A stretch of 64,000 nt of DNA from Candidatus Hydrogenedentota bacterium (GTDB taxonomy: Bacteria > Hydrogenedentota > Hydrogenedentia > Hydrogenedentales > G963678445). The translations under genes were made by a program, and so were the position numbers. Where the stretch lies: assembly GCA_963678445.1 (NCBI GenBank), contig OY782877.1:1685778-1749777 (forward strand), in the 5' to 3' direction. Below the pieces are notes generated by a model that searched no databases, had not been told where the DNA came from, and was given only the letters and a program-made list of their open reading frames with translations. Shown here piece by piece: positions 14,958-52,964 of this stretch; within the stretch, counting starts at the first letter, position 1, and each line of letters begins with the position of its first letter.

Positions 14958-15758
14958 TTATCCCTTCCAGGGGAAAAGATAATCGCGCAGCCCCCGGTTC
15001 AAATAGTCATCCTGCTCATCGTATTCAACAGGCAAACGCCTGTTGGGCGCTGCAACGCCTTGCGCTATTTGCGTTTCGATATATGCATACTTGCGCGAAA
15101 GCATTTCATACGCGCTGCACCGTAACACGACATAGGCGGGCAGGGCGAAAAACAGGGCAAATGGTGGAAATAGCGACAGAACAAGCAGTATCAGGAGTAC
15201 TATCGCTAATTTCATACAAAAAAAGGGGTTATCCAGCAGTAGAAGTATGGAAAGCCGAAAAATAGCCCACGGCCGTTCCTCTTTAAATACTAATGCGGGA
15301 CCGCCCAAAAATGCGGCCAAGACCGCACCTATGACACCCCAAAAGGCCACGCTGCTAAGCGCATATCCCAACCAGAGAAGGGATTGTGGGACACGCATCG
15401 CGTAGAACCACACGCTTAGACTCAGACAAAACAGCACAGCCATGTATTCGTAGGACAGAAGCACGGCCTGTGTGGCATGGCGGCGCATACCGCTAAAAAA
15501 GGTGCGTAGCGTGCTATCCTGTAGTTCGATGCATTCCTTCACCATCGCCGCCATGCCCACGTTAAGGATCGGCAAGACTCCGAGGAAAAGCAGAAGCACG
15601 AGCATTCCGGCAAAAGCCCAGGCGCCACTTGCGCATGCCGCATAGAGTAGCATCAATATCGGCACCAGCATGAGCATACAGAACATATTGGCTAGCAGCA
15701 GCTTCCCCAAGTGGTCGTAGTAGACCCCAAAGGCGATTTTCAACGTGCGCGTTACCAT
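14958..15758 (-). CDS. Polytopic membrane protein (DUF624/YesL-like)
   Basis: 6-7 TM helices; start set at MVTRTLKIAFG because the longer TTG-start ORF runs through the repeated leader element. Confidence 0.4.
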   Translation of the reverse strand: MVTRTLKIAFGVYYDHLGKLLLANMFCMLMLVPILMLLYAACASGAWAFAGMLVLLLFLGVLPILNVGMAAMVKECIELQDSTLRTFFSGMRRHATQAVLLSYEYMAVLFCLSLSVWFYAMRVPQSLLWLGYALSSVAFWGVIGAVLAAFLGGPALVFKEERPWAIFRLSILLLLDNPFFCMKLAIVLLILLVLSLFPPFALFFALPAYVVLRCSAYEMLSRKYAYIETQIAQGVAAPNRRLPVEYDEQDDYLNRGLRDYLFPWKG

Positions 15759-15781
15759 ACCGAAACCAAAACCGTGTGTCG

Positions 15782-15886
15782 TCCTAAAGCGGTCCAGCGA
15801 CCACAAGGTGCTCAAAGGCACACCCAAGAAATATGGTCCTTACCGTCGCTGACCGCAGCAAAAAGTTCTTTTTTTTATGACAGCTC
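15782..15886 (-). promoter_or_regulatory. Copy B of the repeated promoter/leader element (minus strand), 23 nt upstream of the ATG at 15758
   Basis: The reverse complement reads agctgtcataaaaaaaagaactttttgctgcggtcagcgacggtaaggaccatatttcttgggtgtgcctttgagcaccttgtggtcgctggaccgctttagga; about 90% identical to copy C over about 60 nt. Confidence 0.65.
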
Positions 15887-21167: not shown

Positions 21168-24100
21168 TTAGCGACGGCGACGCCGCAGGGATAGAGCGCC
21201 GACAGCGGCGCAAAGTCCGGCCAATACTCCCAGGCCCGCCATACCCGCAGCAGGAATGGCCGGAAGTACGGTCAAGTTTGCCTCGAGCATTAGCACATCG
21301 CCGTTGCTGTCGGAGACGATTAGTTGATAGACACCTGCATTCTCTTCATAGACGGCAGGTATGAAGAAACTCAGTAAATCATTGGTCTTTGCAGGCGATT
21401 CCACAGGACGGCCTTCGTATTGCCATTCCAGGGAAAACGGAGGATAGCCTCCATGCGTAATCACAAAGAATGTGTGTGAATTCCCTGCAGTCACCTCAGC
21501 GTCCATGGGTGGTTCAACCACTTGTAAATGAGGTGCCAGCTCAAGTTGAGCGCGTGGCGTACTGTATGTTACGCCGGAATAGGTGGCCTCACACCAGTAG
21601 GAACCGGCATGTGCAAAACCAAGCGGTTCGAGGATGAACTCAGGCGCATCTTCGCCCACGTCATGTATGGCTTTGCTCATCGTGTCGGCCCATTTCCATT
21701 GATAGTGCACACTGCCCACGCCACAGGCGGGCGCAACGGAGAAGGTTTGGCGATCCCCTACGTAAGCGCGGGTATCTTCAGGTTGTTTTGCAAAGCCGCA
21801 CCAGTTTTCGATGGTGTATTGGGCGGTGTCTCCACCTGCGTAATACAAACCGGTCAAATCCTGCACGTCGGCCCCCAACAGGATACCTATCGTCCCCTCT
21901 GCATCGGGTTCCAGCAACTCAACTTGCACGGTATAAACGGGGTCATCATAAAGCAGCATAAAGGAGGCCGCGCTTGCCAGCGTCCCGATGAGAGTAACAT
22001 CGGCTTCGGTAAACGTAGGCGCGACAGGGTCGTCGAATGTTACGACAAAATCTACCTGGGTGTGGGAAGTCGGGTTTTCGGTTGCAAGCACAATCTCGGC
22101 CCGGGGCGGTTGCGTGTCCACAATCAGTTCGTCTACGGTCGCATCGAAGCCCGTACTTCCGCCACTGGTCGCAGCGACTACGACATCGTAGACTCCTTCG
22201 GCAAGCGGCGGCTGGATGGTGTCATCGGGCAGTACCCACTGGCCATTACCAAGATTTTGTGCTGCATAGGTTGTACCGCCCACAGCAACAGAGAGGGTTG
22301 CGTCCAGCTTGTTTACCGTACCCGTCAGCGGCGGGGTAGGATCGGTAGTAAAAAGCTCATTTATTGTCACCACGGGCACGTTCAAATCGATGAGAAGCTC
22401 GTCGGTTGTTTTATCCCGTCCCACGTTGCCTGCCGCATCTGTTGCTGAAACACCTACATTATAGGTCGTGGGAAAGAGTTCTGTCAGCACACCGCTTTCA
22501 AGACGCCATGTGCCATCGCCCAGATTGAGGGCGTCGCAGATCTGACCGCCAACGGTGACAACAATGGTGGCGGTAGGGTCGTCAACGGTCCCTGTCAATG
22601 CTGGGCTTGCACTGCCTGTGATTAAGGTATCCACACTAACTATAGGCTTGAGCACGTCCACCACAATCTCGTCTAACGTGAGATCCTGTGTTTCGTTACC
22701 CACGGAATCGCTCGCCGTCGCTACGACGTCATAGACGCCAGGTAATAAAAGAATGGAGGAGGCGGGCAAAACCCATGTGCCGTCGCCCTGGTTCACGGCA
22801 AAAACGGTGTATAACCAAACTTGCACTAAAACCGTTGCGGTGGGGTCGTTCACAACACCGGAAATTGCCGCCATGCCATCATTGGTGATGAGTGAATCCA
22901 CCCCTACTGTAGGCGCAATTGTATCGACAACAAGTTCGCCGGTCGTTGTATCGTGCAGGGTGTTTCCGATGGTGTCTGTCACGGTGACAGCAACATCGTA
23001 AATACCGTCTGGCAGGGTAGTCACCTGGTTGTCGGCGATACTCCAATGTCCATCGCCATCATTGACCGCCGTCAATGTTTGTCCGGCTACCGTTACACTG
23101 ACTGCTGCGGTGGGGTCGGCCACATCTCCTTGCAAGGGAGGGGTGCGATCGGTGGTCCCCAGATAATCTACGGTGGGAAGGGCTGCATAGAGATGGATGG
23201 TGTCACTTAAAACGGAGGATTCGCCGTATGCATTTTTAATTTTTACGAAAAGCCTCTTTTCTCCATCGCCTTCGCTGAGCTGCACCTGCGGTTGTGACGT
23301 CAGAGGAACCCAGGATGCGCCATCCATGGAAGGGGTTTCACTAGCCATGAAATGGGTCGCACCATTCATGTGGGTCATATCAAGTTGGACTGTGGAATTG
23401 ATGGAGGTTTCCGCATCTTGATTGATCACAAAATCAAAGAGGGTTGGGGGTACATGAAAGGTAATCTGCTGCTTAGGGTCGGTGAAGTATTCTTCTTCAA
23501 GGAGACCATCGAATGGAACCGGAATGGCAGGAATGTTGATGTTGAAATTCACGTCGGTCAGGTTGGCGATGTTTAGCCGAATGGCGACTGTGGGTTGAAG
23601 GGTCACATCGGGCTCAAGTTGAACCGCGGTGGCGATATTGGCAACGGTGACGTCGGCATCGGCGGCTGTGATGTTGCGATGCTCACCGTCGGAGGTAAAA
23701 TTTCCTCGATCGGTTTCCAAGCGTTTAAAGGTGGCCTTGACTTGATCTCCTGCGGTCAGACTGACTCCGATTTTACCGGTGACTACACCGCTGATATCGA
23801 TTGGAATGTCGAAAAGGTCGATATCATTCAATGCCGCTGCCAGCATGACCGTTTCGCCAAGATTATATGCGGTGATCGTTTTTTCATCTTGCAGGCGCAA
23901 CGTTTCGGAGGGAACAATAGGGAAATCGTCTTCCAGCGTGTATTCCTGTCCGAAGGCTTCGAAATGAATCCGGTATTGGCCACCCAGCGAAATACCGATG
24001 TTTTGCTGTACGGTGCTTGGCGCGCCTATAAAATGCAAATCGCCTAAATCCATCCCGATCGGACAGTCTAGCTGGGCTGCGCCATTGAGGGTGCCGGCAA

Positions 24101-24326
24101 AGAGGATGCCGTCGACGCCACCGGTAAAACGCACATCCGCACGCCCTATACCAAAATCGAAGCCTCGCCATCCGGTATCAAAATGCCAATCGGGGAAGCC
24201 TTCTTCCATTTCCAGGGGGGCATGCTCTTCTTCATACGATGCTGCAAAACCCGCCATGGGAAAAATAGCAAGGAGCCCCACAAGCAATCCTCGCGTCACG
24301 CGTTTCTTTCCTTCTTGAGCTGTCAT
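21168..24326 (-). CDS. Large secreted Ig-like-repeat surface protein (1052 aa): signal peptide, beta-rich N-domain, about 5 bacterial Ig-like repeats, 2 Ig I-set-like domains, C-terminal tripartite sorting tag
   Basis: Signal peptide [15 protein letters not shown]; about 95-aa repeats ([12 protein letters not shown] / [11 protein letters not shown] / [11 protein letters not shown]); C-terminus [33 protein letters not shown]. Confidence 0.7.
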   Translation of the reverse strand: [1052 protein letters not shown]

Positions 24327-24347
24327 AACCTCACATCCCTTTATCGC

Positions 24348-27300
24348 TTAGCGCCGCAGACCACGTCGCGTCATTACACCCAATACTGCCAACACTGCAA
24401 CCAGTGTGATCAGACTCCACACACTGCTTGCCGGCACGCCTGTTCCCACCACAACCAAGTGTTTCTGGGTAACCATCTTGATTTCTTCGTAATTTGTCAC
24501 GGTCAGCGACACGGTATATGCGCCATCGTGTTTATAAACATGCACTGGATTCTGTTCCGTGCTCGTGCCGCCATCGCCAAAGTACCAGTACCATTCTGCC
24601 ACCGGCTTGACCGTGGTCAGCGTCCGGTCATAGAACTGTACGGAAAGCGGTGCACGACCTGTAGGTGGAAATGCTTCGAAATCGGCCTCCATGGACGACT
24701 TGGTGTATTTACCGATGAATTGAATCGTGTCACCCACTTCGAGAAGACGCGATACGGTTGCTGGTGTCGGCGCCCCATACCCTTCTAATGGCTTCCAGGT
24801 CAGGCTGAGGGGGCCGCTGGGGATCTGGTTCAGGGTGACTGTTCCCATGCCTTCGTAGATTCCACCGTCACTGTCGGTAAGGGTCCACTCTGCCGCAGCA
24901 GCAGTTACTTTGATTTCCACCGTACCGGTTTCGCGTGTATAGGTGAAGGGGTAATTGTTGGTAATGTTGCGCAACACCATCACCGAGGTGTCTTCGGGGG
25001 CAATCCATCCGGGTATGGGCTTGAACTTGACCATCCGTTCACCATCCGTACTGGCTAGCATCGCGCCACTGTCACGCCATTCGCCACCGGTAACGCGCCA
25101 TTGTGCACCCGCATTGCGGACGGCTTCTGGTAGCAGCGTTACGGATAGAATCCCTTCGCCCTCACCCAGAATGGGGATATAAGAACCCACCAATGTCAGG
25201 GTTTCGCCTGCACCCAGGGTCGCTGTTGCAGGGTTCGGTTCTGGCATCAGGTAGGTGTTCACATAGCCCCAAATCACCTTCAGCTCACCTGTAGGAATGT
25301 CGGTCAATGTCGTATCGCCCAAACCGGTATGGGGAGCACCATCGCCATCGATTAATGCCCACGGCGCCCCTTCCGGATCTACGTTGATGATTACCGTGCC
25401 CAGTTCACGCACATATTCGTAGGTAAGATCGTAGGGCGTGTTGCGCACAATGGTCATTGAGGCCGTCTCTGGTGCAATCCAGCCGGTCATGGGGGTAAAG
25501 GAAAGGGTAGCTTCCCCATCCGGCACTTCGAGTGTTGCACCAGTATTCTGCCAGGCTCCACCGTTAAAACGCCATTGCGCACCCGCGTCGCATACGCGGG
25601 CTGGGGTCAGATTCACGGTAAGATCGACGCGTCCTTCTCCGATGATAGGGGGGTAGTTTCCGGTGAAGGCAACCGATGCACCGGGAAACAGAACCAAATT
25701 CTGGGTGCTGGGCGTGGGGAGCATATAGGTTGCGAGCGGTTGCCAGGTAAGCGCAATTTCGCCTGTAGGCACATTTTCCACGATCGCACTTCCTTCACCG
25801 GTGTGACTTTCCCCGTCGCCATCGATGAATGACCATGGCGCATCCATGGGTGAGGCATAGATTTCTACGGTACCCGTCTGACGTGTCCAGGTTTCTGTCA
25901 GCTCCAACAAGTAGTCTTTGTTGATCGTGACTGTTTTTTTCTCCGGCGCTGCCCAGCCTTGTACGAGGTTGTAGGTAATGGTGTGTTCGCCCACTGGGGT
26001 AGCAACAAAGCTTCCGCTCTCCTGCCATTCTCCATCGTCCAGACGCCAGCGTGGGGTCTGAGCCAATACGCCATCGGGGGCAAAGTCAACTCGCACTGCA
26101 CCTTCATCAGGAATTTCTCCCATGCATGCAGGATAGTTAACAAAAACACTCTTTTGATAGTTCTCGTGCGTGCCCAAGCCTTCTGACAGTCCAATCAGAC
26201 CACCATAAAGATCCAGCTCCAGCCAGGTGATCACGATACGGCCGTCGAAGAACATCTCGATCTGAAAGTTAACCTGATTTTCCGTGATGATATTGCTCAG
26301 GAAAACCTTGTCGAAGGTAACAACGACGCGATTCGTATACTGTTTCCAGTAAACCGTGCCGCCTTGATCGGGTTTCAGGTCGGTAAAGATGCCGGAAATG
26401 CGTGGCAGGTCAAAATGCGCATCCACACTCGGATCATTTTCTGTATCAGGTGCGGTAAAGGTGATGTAGCCATTACTGCCAATGAAAAATGAGCTGTATT
26501 TTTCACCATACAGCGCTACCTGTTTCCCGTCGCTCAGCGTAATTTCAACAGCATCATTGTCTCCCAATGTCACCGGGGTGCCGTCGTAGGGACTGGTACG
26601 ATAATTACTCGTATCATCGACGCAGGCGACGTAGTAATTGTTGGAAAGATTGGGCGTGAAGAGTACGCGTTTATAGCTTACGTTGTTGTTGCCCATGGTG
26701 AAATGCTGTGTAAACCAATCGGTTGGCTCACCAGGACTGGGCTGACCGGTAAAATTAAGTTCTGATTTTGTAAAGGGGAAATCGCGCAACTTAATCGGCG
26801 TCCACTCCAGACGTGTAAGGAAGTTATCCGCATTCTCGCCCGGCCATTCCCAACGCCAGCCCAAGATTCCGAAGAAAACAACTGGGTAGACTTTTGCTCC
26901 CAGATTTAGCTCCGAATCGTTTTGGTAGGTCAGCTCGGTGCGATACCCTGCGGGGGGAATCACGATATCACGCGTTTCGTGTTCCGTTGTATACTGGTTC
27001 CCATCACTCAAATCGATGCTGTCGCATCGCAAGTAGCCATTGGCTACTGCGGCAATGTCCAGCGCAACGCCTGCTTTGGGAAGAGGCACCCAGTCGGGCA
27101 AGGTAATAAGCCCTCGGGTAATAAGTAGGGAAATAAGGTCTAAATTTACCACTTGCGTGCGTCCGGCTTCATCGCGCAATTCTGATGTTTCGTCCAGCAG
27201 GTAGGTATTGAATTCATCACGATCAGAAGCCACCATGTGAAAATCAGGCACGTAGGGGATATCGACAATAAAGGGATCTATCCAGGAGATGGGGATATCA

Positions 27301-30300
27301 AAGGCGAGCTTGAGGAAGAATTCTGCGCCGAAATAGAATCCCCAGTTGCCTGATGCGGCTCCCGCACTCAGCTGATTTTCATTAGCCAAGGTGAAATTAC
27401 CGCTGACGTTGGCGTCGTAGTTGAAGCCGGCCCCGGCGTTAAGACGCACCTGGATCACAAAACCACCGGGTTCGTCGCCACTGCCACCGGGAATCCAGCC
27501 TGAATCGAAACCGAGGTTTTCCATCCCTTGCGGCGGCACCGTAAATTGCACCATGCGCGTGATTGGATCATCGGCTTTTTCATCTGTCGCTTTAAGAGGA
27601 GAGAGGGGCGATTCGTCTGCCGGTTTAGTCCAAGTCTTCGCTTCGCCCGCCAATTCTTCGATTGGAAAATTTGGTTTTTCGTACTGATATACGAAAATTT
27701 GCATAATAGATCCGCCGGGTTCGTCGAGGCGGATGGAAAGGGGACGAATGCGACCATCTTTGAGTTTTTCTTCTGTGCGGCGCTCTGAAATCATTCGCTG
27801 CCCGTTGCTGTAGACAACCACTTCGAAGGGCTGCGCTCCTGCACTTTTCGGCAAGCGGTAGACTATTTCGTAATTTCCTGCTTGCACCGCGACCTTTTCG
27901 CGACCATCGCGCTGGATTGCACTTTTGGCGCCAGTAGCCTGTTGCGCCGCCAACAGTTCGCGGTGTTGCGATGAAAAGCCTGGGTTGCCGACACCTTGCG
28001 CACCCACACGCACGACACGACGCTCTGTTAATCCGTCGTCGCCGTAGTAGGCCACTTCAACGGAGCCATTTGTCTTCGCCAGTGCTGTCAATGCTTCGTC
28101 GGAGATTTGTGGATTGTTGGTATGCGCGGAATAAATCACCGCGTATTCGCCATAGGCGCTCATTCCCATGCCCAAAATAGCCACAAACAATACTATACGC
28201 ATGTATTTTGCATACGTGGATTTATGTCTCAATATAAATGCGCCTCCCAAAGCACAGCATAAGGCAAGCAGTGCAAGCGCAAATCCGTTCATTGTCGGTA
28301 CCATATACTCTACCTCGACTTCGATTTCACCCGTCTCACAGCTTTCCAACTCATCCGCCACCATACACATGTATACGCCGGCGTCGTCCATTTCGGCCGT
28401 ACCAAGGCTCAATACGGGACCTTGGAGCATGCCGGTATCTTCTATTTCGCCTTTCCCTTCGAGCTTGGTCCAATCATAGGTAACTTGGCCGAAAGCGCCG
28501 GTCACCGTGACTTCAAGGGAAAACAGATCGCCTTCTACGACTTTTTGCTGATTCCCGCCATCCACAGAGATGGTCAGCGCGTTTGGATTTAAGGCAATCC
28601 GATCGGTGATGGATTCTTCGGAGAGGTTGCCTGCGCGATCGCGCAGGGATAAAAATATGTCTTTGTAACCTTGACCGGGAGAAAGCTCCCAGGACAACAT
28701 TTCGCTGAAGGGCTGCCATGCGCCCCAATTCTCCCCGTCGTCACTCAAGCGCATCTCGATTACACCGCTACCACTCGCACCTTCGTCGGCTGTCAGCTTT
28801 AATTGCACGTCCGTTACGCGGGTGAAGGGGGCATTTTCGTCGATGACTATCGTACCTGCCGGCGGTGTCATGTCAATCGCAAGCAATCCAGCGCTTTCGC
28901 TGCTGCCAATCTGTCCGAGTACGTCGGTGGCCGTGATGCTTAAGCTGGCAGGACCGTCTACGTCGATAGAAGGGGTAACGGTATAGGTGTATTCATAGCT
29001 GCTGCCTTCATGGGCCGCATAGCTTGCCGCGTGGCCATTGACGGTAACTTCGGGCAATCCGGGTAGGCCGTTGTCATCATTTACGGTGAATGCAATCGTA
29101 ACTACATCGTTGGCCTTGGCGAATTCGGGATAGACGTTGACCGCACTGATGGTGGGTATCGTGCTGTCAATCAGCAACGCTGTTGTATTGGTAAGTGTGT
29201 CGGCATTCCCGACGCTGTCGACAACGGAAATAAGCACTGTGGCGGGGCCGTCGGGATTAATTTCGCCATCGACTGTATATCGGTAGGTATAGGCATCATC
29301 GGTTTGCGTTTCAAAATCCGCTGCATTTCCGTTTATCAGCACGGTGGGATAGGGCTGTACAGCGGTTGCGGCATCGATTGCTGAAAAGGTCAGACGGACC
29401 AGATCGCCATCTTTGGCAACGTTGGGATTTGCCTGCAGGGAGCTAATCTCGGGCGCTTGTGTATCCACGGTCAGCACATCATTGAAGACGGGGGCGGCGA
29501 TGTTGTTTACCATGTCGACCGCGTTTATCTGAATGGCTGCAGCTCCATTGGGGGAATCCGTTACTATGGAATAGGTGAATGTGTATTCGCTACCTGAGTG
29601 ACTGGTAGGCGCGCCAAGGTCTATTCCATCAACGGTGACGGTGGGGATACCTACTAATGGGCTGTAGCTATCCTGAAGTGTGAAGTGGATCTCAACCGTA
29701 TCACCGGCCTTGGCCATAGCGGGCGTTGCGGTGAGTCCGGTTATATCGGGAGGGGACAGGTCAATGGTAAACGCTGTTTCCGAGCGAAGTTCGCCCGCAT
29801 TACCGGCTACGTCTACTGCTGAGAAAACCACCGTTGCAAAACCTTGCGGGGCGCTAGCCGGTACCGCGTAGTCATAGGTATATGCGTTGCCGACAACCAT
29901 GGAGGGTGCGCCTACTACAACGCCTGCTACCGTGAGCATTGGTGCTGCGGAAAGTGCACTCACGTCCTCTACGCGGATGGAGAAGGTAACTGTGTCATAC
30001 GCACCTGCCAGGTAGGGTGTGATGGCGAGATCGTGGAAAGCAGGCGCCGTATTATCGATGAACAATATCGTGGTTTCTGTCGTCTCGGAACTGTTTCCCG
30101 CGGCGTCTGTTACCTGCACTTGCACAGTCGCCGCACCTTCTGGTGCATTCGATGGCAGGGTGTACATGTACGTGTATTCATCACCCGATGCAGATGATGG
30201 CGCGCCTACATTAGCTCCATTCACTTGCATGAGCGGGGCCGAAGGAAGGCCATTTGCATCCGTTGCTTCTACTTTCAGTGTTACGCGATCGCCTGCCCGG

Positions 30301-31967
30301 GCTGGTGAATTCAGGCAGGATACCTGCTGAATCACAGGCGCGGTTCCGTCGACAAAAAGCGTATTTGTGGATGTCTCCTGGCGGGTGTTTCCCGCACGAT
30401 CGACCGCATTCACGACGAGGGAAATGGGACCATCGGACGTAGCGGTCGGCACGGTGTACGCATATGTATATACATTGCCCGACGTAGCGGTCGGCGCACC
30501 CAGATCGACGCCGTTTGCGCGCATGGTCGGTGTGTCGGCAAGGCCATATACATCGCTCACGGTTACCCGCAATGTCGATGCTGTTCCGGGTTGTACATAA
30601 GCGGGATCTGCCTGAAAATTCGTGATGGTCGGCGGGGTGTCATCGATGGTCAACAACGCATTGGACGATTTGCCCTGGCTATTGCCTGCGGTGTCAATCG
30701 CCAATACCTCAATCAATGCCGCGCCTTGTGGAGCGTTAGTGGGCGTGGTGTAGGTATAGGTGTACACATTGCCCGCTGTCGACGTAGGCGCTCCGATAGA
30801 AACCCCGTTTATTGTCATCGTAGGCGCACTTGTTAACGCCACATTATCACTCGCCTCTACGGTGAGGGTTACAACGTCACCGCCTTGCACATATTGGGAC
30901 GAAACCGTCAGTACACCGACAACGGGGCGTGTGGTATCCAGCACCTGAATGGCGATATCTTCTTCATGGTACCCATTGTATGTTGCCGCATCGGTCACCC
31001 GCACGCGGATGGTATGACTGCCTGCGCTTCCCCGATCAATTAAGGTGGCATCGGCAATAGCGACTTCGACAGTGGTGGCGGTGGAAGCATTCAACGCAAA
31101 ACGTCCCCCTGCTGAATCCACCAATGTCCAGGTGTATGGCTCCACTCCATCCGCATCTGTTGCCTGTAACGTCCCCAGCAACGTTCCGTTAGCGTCCGAA
31201 TCCTGCACCGTCAATGCATTGGGCGCAATATCCGTCGGCGGCGCACTGTCCACCTTCAACACAATCGCCCCCATCGTTCCTTTGTCTGGCAGGTTCCACC
31301 CCGTCGTCAACGCTGTACCATTCAAGCCCGTCACCACCCCCATTGCACCTCCGTTGCGGTCTCCAAACCAGCCACTCACTTTCGGCCAACGCCGGTAGCC
31401 AAGTGTTTTTGTGCCGCCGCCTTTTATACCGGCTTCGTCCATTTCGTCCTTGGTGCTTACCAAGGTCACCAGCACTGCGCCCGCCTCGGCCTGTTGCGCG
31501 GTAAAGGAGACTTCCGGGTCGTCGCCATACCCACCCTGGGCAGCAATGACCGGTGTATCCAGATCGACTCCTGAAAAGCAATAGAGCCCACTCGTTTCCG
31601 GTTCTGTATCCCCTGAGAAGGCCAGCGCCACTGTTTGTGCGCCCGTGGGGGGATTGATGCAGTAGAATAACTGTGCGCGTTCATCCTCGCCTTCAAAATC
31701 CACCGCCTCGGTCATCGCCATCCCCCCCAAGGTGGCTGAGGCTTTACGGTGATTGCGGTTGGTCACCCCTAATATGGCCACTTTGGTGCCTGCGGGAATC
31801 GATGCGGTCGTCCATGACCAGGAGCTACCGCTGTTGGTGGTTTCCGCGCTGAATCCGGATTGGATATCGGGACCATTGAGCAAGGTAATCGCCCCGTAGC
31901 ATGGCATAATTACACAGGCAATGAGCATGCCTGTCCAGCATCCCGAAAAGACATTCCGAGCTGTCAT
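24348..31967 (-). CDS. Giant 2539-aa ORF: in-frame fusion of two adhesin-like genes. Module a (about aa 1-1248) is signal peptide + cadherin-like domain + about 8 Ig-like repeats + 2 Ig domains + sorting tag. Module b (about aa 1256-2539) is signal peptide + large domain + about 7 Ig-like repeats + PKD domain + sorting tag
   Basis: Junction ...[54 protein letters not shown]... at about 28200-28226; PKD motif [32 protein letters not shown]; C-terminus [30 protein letters not shown]. Confidence 0.7.
   Translation of the reverse strand: [2539 protein letters not shown]
24770..26270 (-). repeat. Alternating coding repeats in adhesin module b (GAQWR.NGGAWQ..GA modules interleaved with G.V.I...P..APW..IDGDG..HTG.G modules)
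   Basis: Protein-level periodicity in the ORF translation; boundaries approximate. Confidence 0.45.
28950..31000 (-). repeat. Tandem array of about 285-bp coding repeats (about 8 copies) encoding about 95-aa Ig-like modules (P..IS.L.A.P..AK.GD.V.L.F...D......PTV.ING......T...AYTY.YTV) inside adhesin module a
   Basis: Periodicity seen at protein level in the ORF translation; boundaries approximate; nucleotide copies are diverged. Confidence 0.5.
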
Positions 31968-32711: not shown

Positions 32712-35700
32712 CTACAAGGCTTGCAAAGCGCTAATCAGCTGCGCCAATTCCACACGTGCCTTACTCAACAGGGCAGAATCCTGGGTAAAATGCTCGTTAT
32801 CCACAATAATCGCCTCATCAATCGCCAAGGCAGCTTCCACCTCTTTGCGCAGCGCTTCCGGCACCGCCGCTCCCTTGTTTTGCAGCAAGTTTCGCAACAA
32901 GGCGAAGTACTCGTAATCTTCGATACCGTCGCGGGCAATACTCATGCGAATAGAGGCCCAGGGCACGCCGTTGGGACCGGGATAAATGAGATAGCCACAC
33001 CCATGGTGGCCCGGCTGACTGTTCCAGGGCATCCAGGGGCGTTCAGGCCAGCGCTCTTCACCGCTCACGTTATCCGCCCAATGGGTCGTCCCCCAATAGA
33101 GATAGCCTTGCGCGCCATATTTCCAGCACTGCCAGAAGATAAGGCGGTGATCAATGGCAGGGAAATCAATCATGATGCCGGGGCGATCCCAAACGGTATA
33201 GAACCAAAGATTTTCGCCCGCCTCTTTGCGTAATGCAACCATGTTGGGATCAAATTCGCCAATGACCGGGCACCAGGTATCCACCCCGCCCACCAGCGCC
33301 TGCTCTGGAGCACTGGTCTCAAGGACAGGCCATTGCGGCAGATTTTCCTTCACCCACTGGTTCATTTCAAGCACCTGCGGGATGATGTGGCGCGCCATAA
33401 CCGCGACCTCATCGTGCGCATAATACAGGGCTTTGTCTTCCCAGCCCTTTTCCTTGAGCAACGCCTGGGTCGCAAGCACTTTTTCTTTGTACTCGTCGCG
33501 TCCAGAGCCGTCAAAAAGGTCTGGAATGGGGATAAAGAAACAATTCTGCCCATGCGCCATAAGGTATTCGAAATCTTCCAGCATGTTTCCGCCGCCAAGC
33601 GGGAAGTTTTTGATCGGACTCATGCGGTGCTTGAGGTGCAAATCATAAAAACGTTTGCGCACCTCAAAAGGCGTGCGTCCCTCATACTTGTAGAAACGCT
33701 GCACCTGGCTCTCTTTCATCCAGAACGAAGTCTTCAGCGTAGTTTGCTCAGGCAACGCAAAATCCCATACATCTACTTCAAGAGGAACATTCAGTGTACC
33801 CGCATTCGCCGTCGTCACCTTCAGCACGCCGCTGTATTTACCCGGAGCTGTGTCCGCATCGGTATGCACGGTGATATAAAACGGCTGCGCTTCTTGCGTG
33901 AAAGGCACGTCGAGCTGCGCGTTTGGTTCCAGTACATCCGGATAGAAGCCCACTTTTTCGATTGGAAAATTGTATTCTGGCTCGCCAATCTTCACATAGC
34001 CCACGCCATAGATTTCGATCTGATCGGCGCGCAAAACGGTATCGCCATCTTCCTGCTTAAGATCAACGGCCTGCACTGCAAGCTGATTGAGATCCTGCCA
34101 AAGCGGCACCACCACCAGTTGTGCAGATTCGTATTCGTTGCGTGCCAGCTGAATCTGGACCGGTTTAGGAGCTCGTTTTGTGGAAAGCAGTGCTTCATCC
34201 CGGAAAACCTTGCGCAAAGTCGTTTCCGGCACCGCGGCAAAAGCACCCGCTGTAGCAGGCGTGGCCGCCGCTGCATAAAGGCGCGCTACTTCACGGCGCA
34301 ACAGATCCAGCGCTCCTTGCACCTGCGCAATCATCGCCGCACCACCTTCTTGCGGCATGGCTTTCATCAAGGCGTCACTGGCAGCGTTCACCTGCTTTTC
34401 CAGGGAGCTATGGGCGGCAGCACGCACCGCTTCATCGGCCAGTTTTTCCATAGCGGCATAGCCATCCTGCGTCAGTGTTTGCAAGACTTTGTTTTCCGCC
34501 TCAAATGCATTAAACGTGGCCTCTTCCTCGACCACGCCCAGCAATTGGGCGCCACCCGTATCTACCAAACGCATCGCAAGCTGGTATTTGCCACCCGTAG
34601 CCGCGAACAAATCGAATGCCGCCTCTTTTGCTTCTCCCGGCGCACAGGTTTCGCTGACAACCTGGCTTACGACGCTACCATCCGGACGTGTAATCTCAGC
34701 AATGGTGTCCAAGCGACGCGGACGGATGCTCTGGTTGGCAAACTTAAAGCGTATACGGTTTTTACCTATCTTCAACGGCGCAAACTGCACCAGAGAAAGC
34801 GGCGCGTCGATTGCATCTACCGCCACCGCTGGTGCAGGGGTAAAGGCTGCACCGTGAACATTGCCCGACAACTGCGCATCGTGCGCCAGCATGGGCCAGG
34901 GCAGCTTTTCAGGGACATATTTCCCGCCTAAACTCAAACTGCGGACCGTGCGATCTTTACCGGTAAAAATAATCTCAACTTCACCATCCCCATCCACATC
35001 GCCCAAAGCAGGTGTCGTCAACGGCTGGGCCGTGGTTTTGAAATCCCACTCTTCTTCCCCCTGTGCAGAGAAACAAACCAAACGACTGGAGCGTGCGCAC
35101 ACGAGGATTTCGAGCTCGCCATCGCCATCTACATCGCCCACCGAAGGGCCTTGTACAATGCCGCCCAAACGCGCAGCACCGGCATCGGCCGCCCATAGCA
35201 ATTCTCCATTGCGAATACGATAAACGTGGCCGGATTTGTCGCCCGCAAGCACATCCAACATCCCTTTGCCCTCAAAATCAACCAGCGCAAATGAACAGGC
35301 GTTATCAATACTCCCCTTACCCTTGAACCGCCATTGTTCCTCCCCATTTTCCGCATCATAGGCAATCACCTGGAAATCTTCCGTCGCCGAAACCACCTCC
35401 AGACGCCCATTTCCATTCAAATCGCCCACCGCAACGTTACTACGGCGCTCTTTGCGGGGCTGTCCATCCATCTGTGACCAGACCAGATTGCCATCATGGT
35501 CAAAACAGGCCATCAACCCGCCGCCAAAGGTAATATAAACTCGCATTACCGGACTGTCACCCAGTTGTGCAACGGCAGGAATGCCACGGATCGCGCCGTC
35601 GGCCTGATAATGCCACAGGGCTTGTCCTGTATCATCAAGACAGTACAGTGTACCGCTTTCCGAACCAAAAAGAATCTCAATACGTCCATCCGCGTTGATG

Positions 35701-36137
35701 TCAGCAACCACAGGACCGGTATAATCCATCTCATCGCCCATGGAAACACGCCAGACAAGACGCCCCTGGTAATCCAGGCAACCCGCCGAACCATCACGGG
35801 TAAGGAAAAAGACTTCCTTTTTCCCATCACCGTCATAATCCACTACGGACGGTGTCGCATGAAAACCATCCAACACCTCTTCTTTCAGATGAAAATCCCA
35901 GCGTAAATTGCCTTGGCCATCAAAGCAAAGCATGCGACGCGCCCGTGAGGCAGCCACAATGATTTCCGTCGCCCCATCTCCGTCAATATCAGCAAGAACA
36001 GGCGAGGCGTAAATCTTGCCCCCCGTTTCATAGCTCCACTCCACCTCCGGCGCAACCGTTGCGGCTACGCCTGGCAGTGAAAAAAGGGGGGAAACACATA
36101 CCACTACGCAACACACATTTCGAAAAAATAGGTTCAT
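32712..36137 (-). CDS. Secreted FG-GAP/beta-propeller repeat protein with a C-terminal glycoside-hydrolase-like domain (1142 aa)
   Basis: Signal peptide at internal start MNLFFRNVCCVVVCVSPLFSLPGVAA (AGGAG RBS); about 8 DxDGDGxxE(I/V) FG-GAP/VCBS blades; C-terminal region is TIM-barrel-like (DUF4091-like, uncertain). Confidence 0.65.
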   Translation of the reverse strand: MNLFFRNVCCVVVCVSPLFSLPGVAATVAPEVEWSYETGGKIYASPVLADIDGDGATEIIVAASRARRMLCFDGQGNLRWDFHLKEEVLDGFHATPSVVDYDGDGKKEVFFLTRDGSAGCLDYQGRLVWRVSMGDEMDYTGPVVADINADGRIEILFGSESGTLYCLDDTGQALWHYQADGAIRGIPAVAQLGDSPVMRVYITFGGGLMACFDHDGNLVWSQMDGQPRKERRSNVAVGDLNGNGRLEVVSATEDFQVIAYDAENGEEQWRFKGKGSIDNACSFALVDFEGKGMLDVLAGDKSGHVYRIRNGELLWAADAGAARLGGIVQGPSVGDVDGDGELEILVCARSSRLVCFSAQGEEEWDFKTTAQPLTTPALGDVDGDGEVEIIFTGKDRTVRSLSLGGKYVPEKLPWPMLAHDAQLSGNVHGAAFTPAPAVAVDAIDAPLSLVQFAPLKIGKNRIRFKFANQSIRPRRLDTIAEITRPDGSVVSQVVSETCAPGEAKEAAFDLFAATGGKYQLAMRLVDTGGAQLLGVVEEEATFNAFEAENKVLQTLTQDGYAAMEKLADEAVRAAAHSSLEKQVNAASDALMKAMPQEGGAAMIAQVQGALDLLRREVARLYAAAATPATAGAFAAVPETTLRKVFRDEALLSTKRAPKPVQIQLARNEYESAQLVVVPLWQDLNQLAVQAVDLKQEDGDTVLRADQIEIYGVGYVKIGEPEYNFPIEKVGFYPDVLEPNAQLDVPFTQEAQPFYITVHTDADTAPGKYSGVLKVTTANAGTLNVPLEVDVWDFALPEQTTLKTSFWMKESQVQRFYKYEGRTPFEVRKRFYDLHLKHRMSPIKNFPLGGGNMLEDFEYLMAHGQNCFFIPIPDLFDGSGRDEYKEKVLATQALLKEKGWEDKALYYAHDEVAVMARHIIPQVLEMNQWVKENLPQWPVLETSAPEQALVGGVDTWCPVIGEFDPNMVALRKEAGENLWFYTVWDRPGIMIDFPAIDHRLIFWQCWKYGAQGYLYWGTTHWADNVSGEERWPERPWMPWNSQPGHHGCGYLIYPGPNGVPWASIRMSIARDGIEDYEYFALLRNLLQNKGAAVPEALRKEVEAALAIDEAIIVDNEHFTQDSALLSKARVELAQLISALQAL

Positions 36138-36368
36138 CTCTTTCTCCTGTTTATAGCAAGATCCAACCGTCCAAAATCTGTCGTATTGCAATTTCGCATT
36201 GTGACACGAATGTGTTTCAATATACAAAAAGCATGCCCGCGACCTTGACGGAGATGTAACCGACTTTATTTCAAGTACTTAACTTGCTCCCAACACTGTC
36301 TTTAAACCCGTTCAGCAGCTGAACCAACTCACACCCGCAAAGTCGCTAATGCCACCCCAAAAAATTGC

Positions 36369-49117: not shown

Positions 49118-49130
49118 TCATCGATTGTAT

Positions 49131-49166
49131 GTGAGCGGTCGGGCGCATATGGCCCGACCGCTCCTT
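49131..49166 (+). terminator. Rho-independent terminator after the fucosidase gene (gagcggtcgggc-gcatat-ggcccgaccgctc followed by cttttta)
   Basis: Perfect 12-bp inverted repeat followed by a T-run, read directly. Confidence 0.65.
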
Positions 49167-49193
49167 TTTAAAATCATCACGCGGGGAAGCATC

Positions 49194-52100: not shown

Positions 52101-52964
52101 AGCACTTTTTCTTTTCCCAAGTTTAATGGCGGCTTCACTTGCGATCTAGGAGAACTTTATTATAACGAGGGCCTCTGGCGCAATCTGCATGCCAAGACTA
52201 CATTTACTCCGACGGCCATTGACATTACCGATGTTGGACTTTCTATTGGCGAGGGGAAACTGACCGGTGATGTGCACATCACATCACCCGATGAAGCAAA
52301 CGCGTCGCAGGTAAGCATCAACGCTTTCGCTAAACGTGTCGATATCAAGGCGCTCGATGCTTTTCTCTCGGCGTCCCCCAAAAAAATCTATGGCATCGCC
52401 GATGCTCAAAGCCAACTGCACTTCGCACTTCGTCCTGAGACCCCTTGGCAAAATACGCTGACCGGTACTTTCACCTTCTCGGCCCAAGATGGTTCGTATG
52501 GCAAAATGGGCTTCATCACCAAACTGCTGTCGGTGCTTAAAACTACGGAAATCATACGCCTGCGTTTGCCTGCTTTGCATGATACAGGGCTCAGCTATGA
52601 CGCCTCTTACGCTAATCTCATCCTCGACGAGGGAGAAATCACTGCCGAAAACTTCGGTCTGGATAGTAAGGCCTACGCCATGAGCGGAAAGGGTAGTGTA
52701 AGTCTTCCTGCGGACACTCTCGACCTGCAAATCAACGCCAATTTACTCCAATCTGTCACCGGAATTGTTGGTGGTGTGCCCGTCGTCGGGAAGACGGTAG
52801 ATCTGCTTGCCAAACCTGCCAATCTCGTCATCACGCTTAAAGGGGCGACGGAAGATCCTGACATTGAGGTTCGTACCGGCGCTGCTCCCGCCAAGGAAAT
52901 CCGCAAGGGGGTCGAAGAAACGCGCAAGGGGTTTCGTGAAATCCGAAAGCGCCTCGGGTTATGA
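49194..52964 (+). CDS. AsmA/TamB-like giant envelope protein (N-terminal TM anchor, long beta-rich repetitive region, AsmA-like C-terminus)
   Basis: Single N-terminal TM (IVFFLAFLFPVLLWLSF); 1257 aa of LTL/LQL-rich repeats; C-terminal block resembling the AsmA_2/DUF3971 region. Confidence 0.55.
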   Translation: MANTASKATRKSKKHIVFFLAFLFPVLLWLSFEILLRTPWSAQQAEGLLSELLRVPVHIDSLDFDFFPKRKLQVYGVVLGNEKLRLDAPEVVLEANLSALLQRKIHLTGIESVRPITLFVPQSPQEIRNAWQDFPISKLKAATPDKKQKSSHWQASIDTLSLPVITLLRDEKRYFRGKFTAHDLISDTITLQLFTQLVGVDDDAHMQADLTLNLPDGQPPQLQGRVVAQNMDVEKLLAKPGMPHTRIDLHIDLDGPVPDNLAADIHGEIRTEEKELLNGTLSAKAWFRNGDFLLNDLNLQGAGLNAQIDLSLPTQSPPVLHILDASIQGHALQSLLAALSQKDIQATTTPQACINIRDLLLGTQDKKQLRLVSGDIQFNGIDLALATTAPKHFPNLQGRIHIDENTLHLESLTSQGIELAGTIQPDFITPSVTLDLHGALTLQPQWLTPWIRENSLFQLAGDLILQQCFLTLTPKHPLPQNLQLKTRLDNATLTLHPRNLDTPIQLHPLRAEFTLQDTTLHIDNLQVPDLNASGTLIYLPEEKYIDIQIQGSTNLPGPAAPFIKRYVQLEDIHGALTLENLQTRYILGTGWAKEVVLQSTLKNASTKSIHPAYTDQINDINAQLRQDEKNLQLSASANAVRLGPLRLDATYSLDNDSINATLNTDLSQSIPTLLPDGPPSQYSAALLQNYGPSTLDISAQLPQDFQSPLTLTLIRQGAPVLHLQTEIEILPNAAPRLRTLQAQASTPLDPLNTLFPQHINTQGDAQWIIRGPEANGDLIINIGLSTTTLQAGQYFKKRPGDAASIQLALQTSPNITPRHITAQILGETITATLKDNTIQIPNLNLNLTSLSRLLPDNGNASGNLTGNLNLTPLNLNLQFDHTALALSPELALDEINGVLHYNNGYWRCDKLYLHGADSDCTITAHQDNDTWQGTLQGEKLNLNALTALYEATQAFKFDTATPQETRIVPSTFSFPKFNGGFTCDLGELYYNEGLWRNLHAKTTFTPTAIDITDVGLSIGEGKLTGDVHITSPDEANASQVSINAFAKRVDIKALDAFLSASPKKIYGIADAQSQLHFALRPETPWQNTLTGTFTFSAQDGSYGKMGFITKLLSVLKTTEIIRLRLPALHDTGLSYDASYANLILDEGEITAENFGLDSKAYAMSGKGSVSLPADTLDLQINANLLQSVTGIVGGVPVVGKTVDLLAKPANLVITLKGATEDPDIEVRTGAAPAKEIRKGVEETRKGFREIRKRLGL

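What the first reader, a model, noticed from the sequence alone, without database searches (positions are those of the whole stretch)
21168..31967. Three adhesin-like modules share an unusual tripartite C-terminal sorting tag; no matching sortase in the window
The three C-termini are VLPAIPAAG-MAGLGVLAGLCAAVGALSL-RRRRR, MVPTMNG-FALALLALCCALGGAFIL-RHK and GVPASS-VWSLITLVAVLAVLGVM-TRRGLRR. Each is a short VP/LP-containing motif, a hydrophobic helix and a basic cluster. This is the layout of exosortase/archaeosortase-type tags (PEP-CTERM, VPLPA-CTERM and similar), but the motif is not canonical PEP. The bodies are Ig-like, I-set and PKD repeats. That implies a dedicated sorting system encoded elsewhere and a family of giant surface proteins, possibly a lineage-specific variant tag.
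Basis: partly seen in the sequence, partly recalled or inferred. Interest (0 to 1): 0.6.

Follow-up and report, generated by a model that had tools for sequence, protein, structure and literature searches.

The report
Surface-protein polyprotein with internal sorting tags
Two adjacent genes encode three complete giant surface-protein units, each with a signal peptide, an Ig/PKD-rich body and a membrane tag; the first two units are joined in one reading frame by a conserved "tag plus signal peptide" hairpin, which suggests that one gene delivers several separate surface proteins.

Summary
The three quoted tags are in the sequence exactly as written. There are only two ORFs, both on the minus strand: A (24348-31967, 2539 aa) and B (21168-24326, 1052 aa). 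The "middle C-terminus" is internal to A. No stop codon follows it; 8 residues later comes a signal-peptide-like segment.

This in-frame junction is not an error. It is kept in eight relatives (41-54% identity, mostly labelled Candidatus Hydrogenedentota), and one relative fuses all three modules into a 3617-aa ORF. Each module also occurs elsewhere as a stand-alone gene. The internal hydrophobic segment aligns column for column with the N-terminal signal peptides of stand-alone orthologues, including small residues at -3/-1.

A [VLIM]-P-x-x-[G/S] motif precedes the helix in 21 of 28 tags, against 4.4% of control membrane helices. No tag from the window reaches a curated cut-off (PEP-CTERM, IPTL-CTERM, LPXTG, GlyGly, MYXO). 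A paralogue in the sister assembly and other Hydrogenedentota giants carry the same tag. No sortase-like gene lies in the window or in the relatives' neighbourhoods checked; the rest of the genome could not be searched.

Best reading: a polyprotein of surface proteins punctuated by stop-transfer tag plus cleavable signal peptide, carrying a lineage-specific tag whose processing enzyme is unidentified.

The parts
31893..31967 (-). N-terminal signal peptide of ORF A (aa 1-25, MTARNVFSGCWTGMLIACVIMPCYG|A)
   Evidence: Read from the translation, coordinates. Orthologues have equivalent hydrophobic N-termini.
28305..31892 (-). Module A1 body (aa 26-1221): unassigned N-terminal domain, cadherin-like domain, about 8 Big_13/Big_3_3-type repeats, terminal Ig_3/I-set domain
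   Evidence: Pfam hits. The N-terminal 570 aa are paralogous to P0042, E 3e-50.
28284..28304 (-). Tag T1 signature motif MVPTMNG (aa 1222-1228); P1224 is invariant in six aligned orthologues
28230..28283 (-). Tag T1 hydrophobic helix FALALLALCCALGGAFIL (aa 1229-1246)
   Evidence: The same element is found in eight relatives.
28197..28229 (-). Basic loop RHKSTYAKYMR (aa 1247-1257). It serves as the tail of T1 and as the n-region of the following signal peptide. There is no stop codon.
   Evidence: DNA read. A >=90%-identical relative has STHAKG here, also without a stop. The loop is 3-11 aa long in relatives.
28149..28196 (-). Internal signal-peptide h/c region IVLFVAILGMGMSAYG (aa 1258-1273); predicted SPase I site AYG|EY
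   Evidence: Aligns with the N-terminal signal peptides of stand-alone A2 orthologues L011-L017. The NCBIfam midcut_by_XrtH sub-threshold hit spans aa 1222-1273.
24441..28148 (-). Module A2 body (aa 1274-2509): conserved unassigned core, three repeats of about 150 aa, terminal PKD domain
24351..24440 (-). Tag T2, true C-terminus of ORF A: GVPASS + VWSLITLVAVLAVLGVM + TRRGLRR; G2510 and P2512 invariant
24327..24347 (-). 21-nt spacer between the stop codon of A (TAA, 24348-24350) and the ATG of B. This spacer is missing in the triple-fusion relative P0020.
24243..24326 (-). N-terminal signal peptide of ORF B (aa 1-28, ...LLAIFPMAGFA|ASYEE)
   Evidence: It is homologous to the internal segment LPLALLLVAVFAANGAHA|AEYRE of P0020.
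21267..24242 (-). Module B body (aa 29-1020): unassigned N-terminal domain, four Big_13 (Ca-tandemer-like) repeats, two Ig_3/I-set domains
21171..21266 (-). Tag T3, C-terminus of ORF B: LPAIPAAG + MAGLGVLAGLCAAVGALSL + RRRRR
   Evidence: A >=90%-identical relative, P0017, has GLPATG at this position.

Best explanation
The locus encodes three complete secreted units, A1, A2 and B. Each unit is built as Sec signal peptide, Ig/PKD-rich body, then a C-terminal tag made of a [VLIM]-P-x-x-[G/S] motif, a 17-19-residue Gly/Ala-rich helix and an Arg/Lys cluster. A1 and A2 are translated as one 2539-aa polypeptide.

Proposed route:
1. The N-terminal signal peptide starts Sec export of A1.
2. Tag T1 stops transfer, with its basic cluster left in the cytoplasm.
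3. The same basic cluster then acts as the n-region of the next hydrophobic segment, which re-starts export of A2.
4. Signal peptidase I cuts after AYG.
5. Tag T2 stops transfer again.
6. B, starting 21 nt after the stop codon of A, follows the same route on its own.

The products are three separate, C-terminally anchored proteins. Each has its Pro motif at the outer face of the inner membrane. There an unidentified, lineage-specific processing enzyme, acting like an exosortase, rhombosortase or myxosortase, most likely cleaves or transfers them for display beyond the inner membrane of a diderm cell.

Shown here: the architecture, its conservation, the homology of the internal segment to real N-terminal signal peptides, the enrichment of the motif, and the recurrence of the tag in the lineage.
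Inferred: cleavage by signal peptidase, the existence of a sorting enzyme, and surface display.
For: 1. There is no stop between T1 and the signal-peptide-like segment.
2. The same junction is found in P0020, P0021, P0022, P0023, P0024, L008 and L010, and in a >=90% relative, P0228.
3. P0020 (3617 aa) fuses A1, A2 and B through two such hairpins and is seen in two assemblies.
4. Each module also exists alone with an ordinary N-terminal signal peptide: A2 in L011-L017, B in L001, an A1-like protein in P0042.
5. Internal segments align with those N-terminal signal peptides in the n, h and c regions and at the mature N-terminus xYxVYSA. Every junction has small residues at -3/-1: AYG|E, AVA|Q, AHA|A, AQA|Q, ADA|Q, AGA|E, ATA|E, TVA|E.
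6. There is no conserved Met at the internal segment (RRKAVALVML, RRAGRTAWLL), so A2 is not made by a conserved internal start.
7. Motif enrichment is 21/28 tags against 4.4% of control helices. The Pro is invariant in six orthologues at both A tags while mean column identity is 51%.
8. The same tag type sits on unrelated giant proteins of the lineage.
9. The window encodes diderm markers: SurA, an OmpA-family protein and a YhdP/AsmA-like protein. Proteins of 1000 aa or more would otherwise be confined to the periplasm.
10. Precedent: an IPTL-CTERM-tagged protein forms the outermost layer of a diderm (PMC8671808).
11. Among 168 ORFs of at least 800 aa in the fetched loci, internal hairpins in non-polytopic proteins occur only in this family.
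Against: - No candidate sorting enzyme was found in the window or in about 20-kb neighbourhoods of six relatives.
- The tags fall below every curated CTERM cut-off apart from two marginal LPXTG hits on relatives' tags.
- One B orthologue, P0004, lacks the Pro (ALSAGG), and three profile-selected tags (P0129, P0194, P0227) have AP instead of [VLIM]P.
- No incidental tagged ORF turned up in the several hundred kb of Hydrogenedentota flanks. The tag is therefore not abundant per genome, unlike PEP-CTERM in many exosortase genomes.
- Pro and Gly at a helix cap, and small-xxx-small motifs, could be purely structural.
- No cleavage event has been observed.
Confidence: 0.55

Rival explanations
1. The tags are plain stop-transfer anchors and there is no dedicated sortase. 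The proteins remain type I inner-membrane proteins. A1 may keep a two-helix hairpin anchor after signal-peptidase cleavage, or A may stay uncut as a three-pass protein with giant periplasmic loops. The Pro/Gly motif only caps the helix, and the Gly/Ala-rich helices pack through small-xxx-small contacts.
For: - No sortase-like gene was found anywhere examined.
- The tags are sub-threshold for curated models.
- P0004 lacks the Pro.
- The motif is loose.
- Few tagged proteins were seen per stretch of genome sampled.
Against: - The Pro is invariant across 41-54%-identical orthologues at two positions while its neighbours vary.
- The motif is about 17-fold enriched over ordinary membrane helices.
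- The helices are short (17-19 aa) and directly abut the last Ig/PKD domain, as in known sorting signals.
- The diderm context makes inner-membrane retention of adhesin-like repeat proteins functionally odd.
Confidence: 0.28
2. The tags are divergent members of an already described system (IPTL-CTERM, PEP-CTERM/exosortase, or LPXTG/sortase), processed by the known enzyme class encoded elsewhere in the 5.11-Mb genome.
For: - The best sub-threshold hits are IPTL_CTERM: 14.4-15.9 bits for the window tags and 19.4 for L060, against a cut-off of 20.5. PEP_CTERM scores 14.5-14.7 against 16.
- Several junction tags read VPxxSW or LPTLRW, like IPTLSEWG.
- Canonical IPTL-like tags (VPTASEWG, IPTVSTWG) occur in Phycisphaerae loci.
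- A close relative of B has LPATG and scores 18.6 against the 15.9 LPXTG cut-off.
Against: - None of the three window tags passes any cut-off.
- There is no Glu-Pro after the Pro.
- Thr at the LPXTG position occurs in only 2 of about 29 tags.
- Hits scatter over eight or more unrelated CTERM models, which points to generic helix-plus-Arg similarity.
- LPXTG anchoring needs a Gram-positive-type wall context, whereas the window has diderm markers.
Confidence: 0.13
3. The in-frame A1-A2 junction is an artefact or a recent pseudogenising loss of a stop codon between two genes.
For: Only 18 nt separate the tag from the ATG of the signal-peptide-like segment. The two Tyr codons in STYAKY are each one substitution away from a stop codon.
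Against: The same fusion is present in at least eight divergent sequences from independent assemblies (NCBI, JGI, ENA, Logan), and most have no Met at the junction. Flanking domains are intact and conserved.
Confidence: 0.02

Closest known systems
midcut-by-XrtH proteins (NCBIfam NF033207)
   Same: A PEP-CTERM-like sorting region lies in the middle of the protein rather than at its end. The model aligns to the whole hairpin of ORF A (aa 1222-1273, profile positions 36-86) and, weakly, to 9 of the other tags scanned singly.
   Different: The score is 23.4 bits against a cut-off of 45, so this is not a member. The model is only 175 positions long, whereas this protein has 2539-3617 residues. Here the downstream half is a full second or third surface-protein unit with its own cleavable signal peptide and its own tag. 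No XrtH is known for this lineage.
PEP-CTERM / exosortase system (TIGR02595; Haft et al., cited in PMC3237569)
   Same: The layout is tripartite: a Pro-containing motif, a helix and an Arg cluster. The tag directly follows the last extracellular domain. The host appears to be a diderm. Several tagged paralogues occur per genome.
   Different: There is no Pro-Glu-Pro. Scores stay below the cut-off (<=14.7 against 16). No exosortase was found in the sequence available. The tag appears to be rare per genome.
IPTL-CTERM (TIGR04174 / PF18203)
   Same: It gives the most consistent sub-threshold matches. The [IV]-P-[TA]-x-S-W pattern is present in the junction tags. An IPTL-CTERM protein is the surface layer of the diderm Methylomirabilis (PMC8671808).
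   Different: Scores are 9-16 bits (19.4 at best in a relative) against a cut-off of 20.5. The C-terminal tags read P-A-A-G, P-A-S-S or P-V-G-G rather than P-T-L-S-E-W. To my knowledge the IPTL processing enzyme is itself unknown.
LPXTG / sortase cell-wall sorting signal (TIGR01167)
   Same: The tripartite logic is identical. LPATG occurs in two relatives (P0017, L008). One of these scores 18.6 bits, and a relative with MPAAG (P0023) scores 16.3 through its helix and tail, against a cut-off of 15.9.
   Different: The window tags are IPAAG, VPASS and VPTMN. The Thr is not conserved. The envelope markers are those of a diderm, and no sortase is in the window.
Polyproteins cut at internal signal peptides: cytochrome b/c1 precursor FbcH of Bradyrhizobium japonicum, and flavivirus/bunyavirus glycoprotein precursors (from my own knowledge; bunyavirus case mentioned in PMC6784171)
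   Same: A stop-transfer helix is followed by an internal signal sequence. Signal peptidase then releases the downstream protein from a single translation product.
   Different: Those are a respiratory complex and viral envelope proteins. I found no description of this arrangement for bacterial adhesin-like surface proteins, nor one coupled to sorting-tag-like C-termini and variable gene fusion and fission.

Membership tests
PEP-CTERM (TIGR02595) / exosortase | HMM score at or above the curated cut-off (16 bits) | tested here: not met
   Best 14.5 bits (T3) in the window and 14.7 in relatives. T1 and T2 give no hit at E<=10.
PEP-CTERM (TIGR02595) / exosortase | Pro-Glu-Pro signature immediately before the helix | tested here: not met
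   The motifs are VPTMN, VPASS and IPAAG. None of the 29 tags compiled has Glu-Pro after the Pro.
PEP-CTERM (TIGR02595) / exosortase | Cognate exosortase (EpsH/Xrt, PF09721) in the same genome | not testable with these tools
   None in the 64-kb window. The source genome is absent from the searchable collections.
PEP-CTERM (TIGR02595) / exosortase | Many tagged paralogues in one genome | tested here: inconclusive
   Four tags are known: three in the window, plus P0042 in the near-identical sister assembly, whose >=90% cluster-mate P0230 lies on the 5.11-Mb contig but whose own C-terminus was not read. No incidental tags appeared in the flanks sampled.
IPTL-CTERM (TIGR04174 / PF18203) | HMM score at or above the cut-off (20.5 / 20.8 bits) | tested here: not met
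   T1 14.4, T2 15.9, T3 9.3 bits; Pfam 13.4; best relative 19.4.
IPTL-CTERM (TIGR04174 / PF18203) | [IV]-P-T-[LM] signature | tested here: inconclusive
   T1 has VPTM and P0022 has LPTL. T2 and T3 and most relatives have Ala, Val or Leu in place of Thr.
LPXTG / sortase (TIGR01167) | LPXTG motif and HMM score of at least 15.9 bits | tested here: not met
   Window tags score at most 9.9 bits. Only relative P0017 (LPATG, 18.6 bits) and P0023 (16.3 bits, helix and tail only) pass.
LPXTG / sortase (TIGR01167) | Sortase gene and a Gram-positive-type envelope | tested here: not met
   No PF04203 in the window. SurA, an OmpA-family protein and YhdP/AsmA-like genes point to a diderm.
GlyGly-CTERM / rhombosortase | HMM match to TIGR03501 and a Gly-Gly signature | tested here: not met
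   No hit at E<=10 for any of the 23 tags scanned. No rhomboid in the window.
MYXO-CTERM / myxosortase | Invariant Cys in the signature motif and HMM score of at least 20 bits | tested here: not met
   Cys occurs inside the helix of T1 and T3 only, not in the motif. Scores are 9-17.7 bits.
midcut-by-XrtH (NF033207) | HMM score of at least 45 bits | tested here: not met
   23.4 bits over aa 1222-1273; 12.8-17.6 bits for single tags.
midcut-by-XrtH (NF033207) | Sorting-signal-like region in mid-protein | tested here: met
   T1 is internal and conserved. This is a resemblance in architecture only.
Sec-type signal peptide cleaved by signal peptidase I (for the internal segment) | Basic n-region, hydrophobic h-region of 10-15 aa, small residues at -3/-1, homology to true N-terminal signal peptides | tested here: met
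   Alignment with the N-termini of stand-alone orthologues. Every junction has small residues at -3/-1, most with Ala at both positions.
Sec-type signal peptide cleaved by signal peptidase I (for the internal segment) | Actual cleavage | not testable with these tools
   This needs N-terminal proteomics or reporter fusions.

The most novel reading that the evidence does not exclude
Hydrogenedentota (and perhaps other uncultured diderms) use a self-punctuating surface-protein polyprotein. A previously undescribed [VLIM]PxxG/S sorting tag is fused directly to the next unit's signal peptide. One ORF of up to 3617 aa is therefore threaded through Sec two or three times and cut into independent, stoichiometric surface proteins by signal peptidase and by a not-yet-identified sorting enzyme class. 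Because the junction makes a stop codon functionally optional, the genes fuse and split freely between lineages.
Probability: 0.35. Interest if true: 0.75.

Novelty: new variant of a known kind. Interest (0 to 1): 0.6.

Why it matters
Tripartite C-terminal tags are how many bacteria and archaea route proteins to their surface, and each new tag has so far led to a new processing enzyme. This locus offers three things.

1. A tag that no curated model captures, in a candidate phylum with no cultured model organism.
2. A natural experiment on function. The tag works in mid-protein, back to back with a signal peptide, and the same three units occur as one, two or three genes in different lineages. 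That gives direct predictions for topology and cleavage that can be tested in E. coli reporters or by metaproteomics.
3. A practical warning for annotation. Giant "single" ORFs of this type probably represent several mature proteins. C-terminus-only tag searches will miss internal tags.

Tried and rejected
- Exact look-ups of the window proteins and of their identical database copies found no contig. The first genome-contig scan found nothing. The source genome could therefore not be searched for a sortase or a full tag census.
- The last homologous-protein search, using the Ig+tag cassette alignment, returned no hit at E<=0.001.
- The exhaustive profile search with the same alignment returned 76,277 hits and was swamped by tandem-Ig proteins. 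Only about six of the top 150 matched through the tag.
- AlphaFold2 on the A2 core with a 5-sequence alignment gave mean pLDDT 31, so no fold search was attempted.
- Pfam at E<=10 on that core found nothing. My impression that it resembles a NIDO-type domain is therefore unsupported.
- The PDB sequence search matched only the PKD domain.
- A2 and B are not detectably paralogous outside the Ig repeats.
- Grepping fetched loci for polytopic ORFs with a C-S-G-type exosortase motif gave no credible candidate.
- Polytopic neighbours turned out to be an SSF transporter, a GDSL-like protein, a LAB_N protein and a cytochrome c assembly protein.
- Literature searches for midcut-by-XrtH, for Hydrogenedentes with exosortase, and for bacterial internal-signal-peptide polyproteins found nothing relevant.
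- Rejected: a lost-stop pseudogene or assembly error, because of conservation across relatives.
- Rejected: a conserved internal translation start for A2, because there is no conserved Met.
Full report
**1. What is at the coordinates**

The span 21168-31967 holds two minus-strand ORFs, not three. ORF A is 24348-31967 (2539 aa) and ORF B is 21168-24326 (1052 aa), separated by 21 nt.

T3 is the C-terminus of B and T2 is the C-terminus of A. T1 (MVPTMNG-FALALLALCCALGGAFIL-RHK) is aa 1222-1249 of A, and the frame runs on without a stop: RHK-STYAKY-MRIVLFVAILGMGMSAYG-EYAVIYSAHT.... The segment after T1 has the form of a Sec signal peptide.

In the whole 64-kb window, only these two ORFs of at least 120 aa end in a hydrophobic helix plus a basic cluster.

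**2. Is the in-frame junction real?**

Yes. A search with ORF A found full-length relatives at 42-54% identity: P0021 (2570 aa), P0022 (2549), P0023 (2561) and P0024 (2557). P0020 has 3617 aa. Their sequences, plus genome loci L008 and L010, all carry the same element at the same place. It consists of a φ-Pro motif, a helix, a basic loop of 3-11 residues, a second hydrophobic segment ending in small residues at -3/-1, and then a conserved mature start xYxVYSA. A >=90%-identical relative (P0228) has STHAKG in place of STYAKY and still has no stop.

P0020 goes further. It contains A1, A2 and B in one ORF with two such hairpins (...GLPALSRTALALLAAIVMIAGALLYWRRR-LPLALLLVAVFAANGAHA|AEYREPHDN...), and it was recovered in an NCBI MAG and in a Logan assembly.

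The module map from tblastn is as follows:

| Locus | Arrangement |
|---|---|
| window, L002/L003 | [A1-A2] + [B] |
| L004-L006 | [A1-A2-B] |
| L007, L010 | [A1-A2] only |
| L001 | B alone |
| L011-L017 | A2 alone |
| L086 | A1-like paralogue alone (P0042) |

Each unit is thus a self-sufficient "signal peptide, body, tag" gene somewhere, and the long ORFs are fusions of whole units. Among 168 ORFs of at least 800 aa in all fetched loci, internal two-helix hairpins outside polytopic membrane proteins occur only in this family.

**3. The internal hydrophobic segment is a signal peptide by homology**

I aligned the internal segments with the N-termini of stand-alone A2 genes from Hydrogenedens MAGs, for example MKHKNLIILVLLFIISPLFAYG|DSYWVYSARWEG. 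The basic n-region, the h-region, the c-region and the mature N-terminus fall in the same columns. Every junction has small residues at -3/-1: AYG|E, AVA|Q, AHA|A, AQA|Q, ADA|Q, AGA|E, ATA|E, TVA|E. Most relatives have no Met there (RRKAVALVML, RRAGRTAWLL), so a conserved internal start is unlikely.

The topology is self-consistent. The Arg/Lys cluster is both the cytoplasmic tail of the tag helix and the n-region of the next signal peptide. It follows from established Sec and signal peptidase I rules, but is not shown here, that the polypeptide is cut after this segment. A1 and A2, and B in P0020, would then become separate proteins. This would also explain why a stop codon at the junction is dispensable and why fusion and fission vary between lineages.

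**4. The tag**

Anchored on the Pro, the 29 compiled tags read as follows:

| Position | Motifs seen |
|---|---|
| A1/A2 junction | VPTMN, VPLGS, VPAMS, LPTLR, VPAAS, VPAIS, VPVAS, VPAIG |
| C-terminus of A | VPASS, LPALS, VPLSR, MPVGG, MPAAG, LPATG, IPAAG |
| C-terminus of B | IPAAG, LPATG, LPLSV, LPLKS |
| Other proteins | VPAAS, VPSSG, VPLSP, LPAIA, VPLAT, LPAVG, APAAA, APVAG, VPVAG |

One B orthologue lacks the Pro (ALSAGG, P0004).

In the six-sequence alignment (mean column identity 51%), P1224, G2510 and P2512 are invariant while their neighbours vary. [VLIM]P..[GSNR] lies within -12..+3 of the helix start in 21/28 tags, against 12/273 (4.4%) helices of polytopic proteins in the same loci. 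The tags are not all independent. Counting only families that were not selected through the tag, namely the junction, A-C, B-C, P0042, L060, L084 and L021, 7/7 have φ-Pro against a 23% background.

The Ig+tag cassettes of T1, T3 and P0042 align as a unit, so part of the similarity comes from descent. T2 follows a PKD domain.

The tag is not confined to this locus.
- P0042 (1516 aa, ending ISVPAASALSLSLLSLLSALGGSAALIRRRKK) lies on the 3.55-Mb sister contig that also carries a near-identical copy of A. Its >=90% cluster-mate P0230 lies on the 5.11-Mb contig, whose copy of A is identical to the window's in the tag regions checked.
- L060 and L084 (Hydrogenedens/Hydrogenedentales), P0129 (NLV41550.1, Candidatus Hydrogenedentes) and several metagenomic tandem-Ig giants end the same way.

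**5. Comparison with curated families**

I scanned 23 tags as isolated peptides, and the whole proteins, against NCBIfam and Pfam. No window tag reaches a cut-off.

| Model | Scores | Cut-off |
|---|---|---|
| IPTL_CTERM | 9.3-15.9 bits (19.4 for L060) | 20.5 |
| PEP_CTERM | <=14.7 | 16 |
| MYXO-CTERM | <=17.7 | 20 |
| GlyGly-CTERM | no hit | - |
| LPXTG_anchor | <=9.9 for window tags | 15.9 |

Two relatives pass the permissive LPXTG model: P0017 with LPATG at 18.6 bits, and P0023 at 16.3 bits through its helix and tail only. Thr at that position is otherwise rare.

Hits are spread over eight or more unrelated CTERM models, which is what generic helix-plus-Arg similarity produces.

The most telling match is to NF033207, "midcut-by-XrtH". 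It aligns over aa 1222-1273 of A, that is over the whole hairpin, at 23.4 bits against a cut-off of 45. This is not membership. It does show that a mid-protein sorting signal is an architecture the curators have already seen once.

**6. Sorting enzyme and context**

Every sizeable window ORF was scanned. The neighbours are housekeeping or carbohydrate-related genes: a GntR/LacI-type regulator, GH123 fused to FG-GAP repeats, SbcCD, PBP1, SurA, enolase, an OmpA-family protein, a YhdP-like protein and menECA. There is no exosortase, sortase, rhomboid or CPBP protease. The neighbourhoods of P0004, P0020, P0021, P0042 and P0129 show none either, and they share no conserved neighbour apart from B.

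The source genome is not in the searchable collections, so absence from the genome could not be tested.

SurA, the OmpA-family protein and the YhdP/AsmA-like protein in the window indicate a diderm. For a diderm, known C-terminal tags work by anchoring in the inner membrane, followed by cleavage or lipid transfer and then export (PMC3237569, PMC11980579). An IPTL-CTERM protein forms the outermost layer of Methylomirabilis (PMC8671808). This makes processing more plausible than permanent inner-membrane retention of 1000-aa Ig-repeat proteins, but it is an inference.

**7. Taxon**

The closest relatives of A are MAGs labelled Candidatus Hydrogenedentota. The P0020 contig is labelled Nitrospirales, which is probably a binning or labelling error. 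The window therefore most likely comes from a Hydrogenedentota genome of 5.11 Mb. This rests on homologues at 41-54% identity, not on marker genes.

**8. Verdict**

The tag is a non-canonical, lineage-specific, tripartite, sorting-signal-like tag on a family of giant surface proteins. Membership in the exosortase system is not shown, and the enzyme remains unknown.

The added finding is the conserved "tag plus signal peptide" hairpin, which turns one ORF into a probable polyprotein of two or three surface proteins. I rate this a new variant of a known kind, interest 0.6.

Noticed in passing
window 14958-15827 (-): A 289-aa ORF with about 7 predicted membrane helices lies between enolase and SurA. 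It has no Pfam hit (E<=0.05) and no NCBIfam hit (E<=0.01). By eye it looks YesL/DUF624-like, not exosortase-like.
   Followed up: partly
window 26118-26735 (-), aa 1745-1950 of ORF A: A ~200-aa domain (SNGYITF...FQIEMFFDGRIVITWL) is shared with 164 loci in Planctomycetota, Verrucomicrobiota, Acidobacteriota and others, usually inside giant secreted proteins that end in dockerin-like or other C-termini. It has no Pfam model, and AlphaFold2 failed on it (pLDDT 31).
   Followed up: partly
L004/L006 (CAZMVU010000023.1): The contig carrying the triple-fusion ORF is titled 'uncultured Nitrospirales', yet all other full-length relatives are Candidatus Hydrogenedentota MAGs. This is probably a binning or taxonomy mislabel.
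   Followed up: no
P0017 (>=90% identical to ORF B) and L008/L009 C-termini: Close relatives carry an exact LPATG where the window has IPAAG or VPASS. Annotation pipelines may label these diderm proteins 'LPXTG cell wall anchor' (18.6 bits against a 15.9 cut-off).
   Followed up: partly
L065 5631-6482, L066, L067, L069, L079 1229-6919: Phycisphaerae loci fetched for the shared domain hold canonical PEP-CTERM tags (VPEPS..., IPEPS...) and IPTL-like tags (VPTASEWG, IPTVSTWG) on neighbouring genes. They are useful positive controls for the tag screen.
   Followed up: no
window 32712-36227 (-): Immediately upstream of ORF A lies a 1171-aa fusion of FG-GAP/beta-propeller repeats with a GH123 glycoside hydrolase catalytic domain.
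   Followed up: no
window 50001-52000 (+), inside ORF 49125-52964: GC skew here is strongly negative (-0.43) and AT skew positive (+0.23), within a YhdP/AsmA-like 1279-aa gene. The translation is rich in Thr, Gln, Leu, Asn and Pro. This is probably compositional only.
   Followed up: partly
L087 579-1217 (+): A 212-aa ORF with no Pfam hit ends 16 nt before the start of the tagged tandem-Ig giant P0129 in a Hydrogenedentes MAG. I did not check whether it recurs next to other tagged genes.
   Followed up: no
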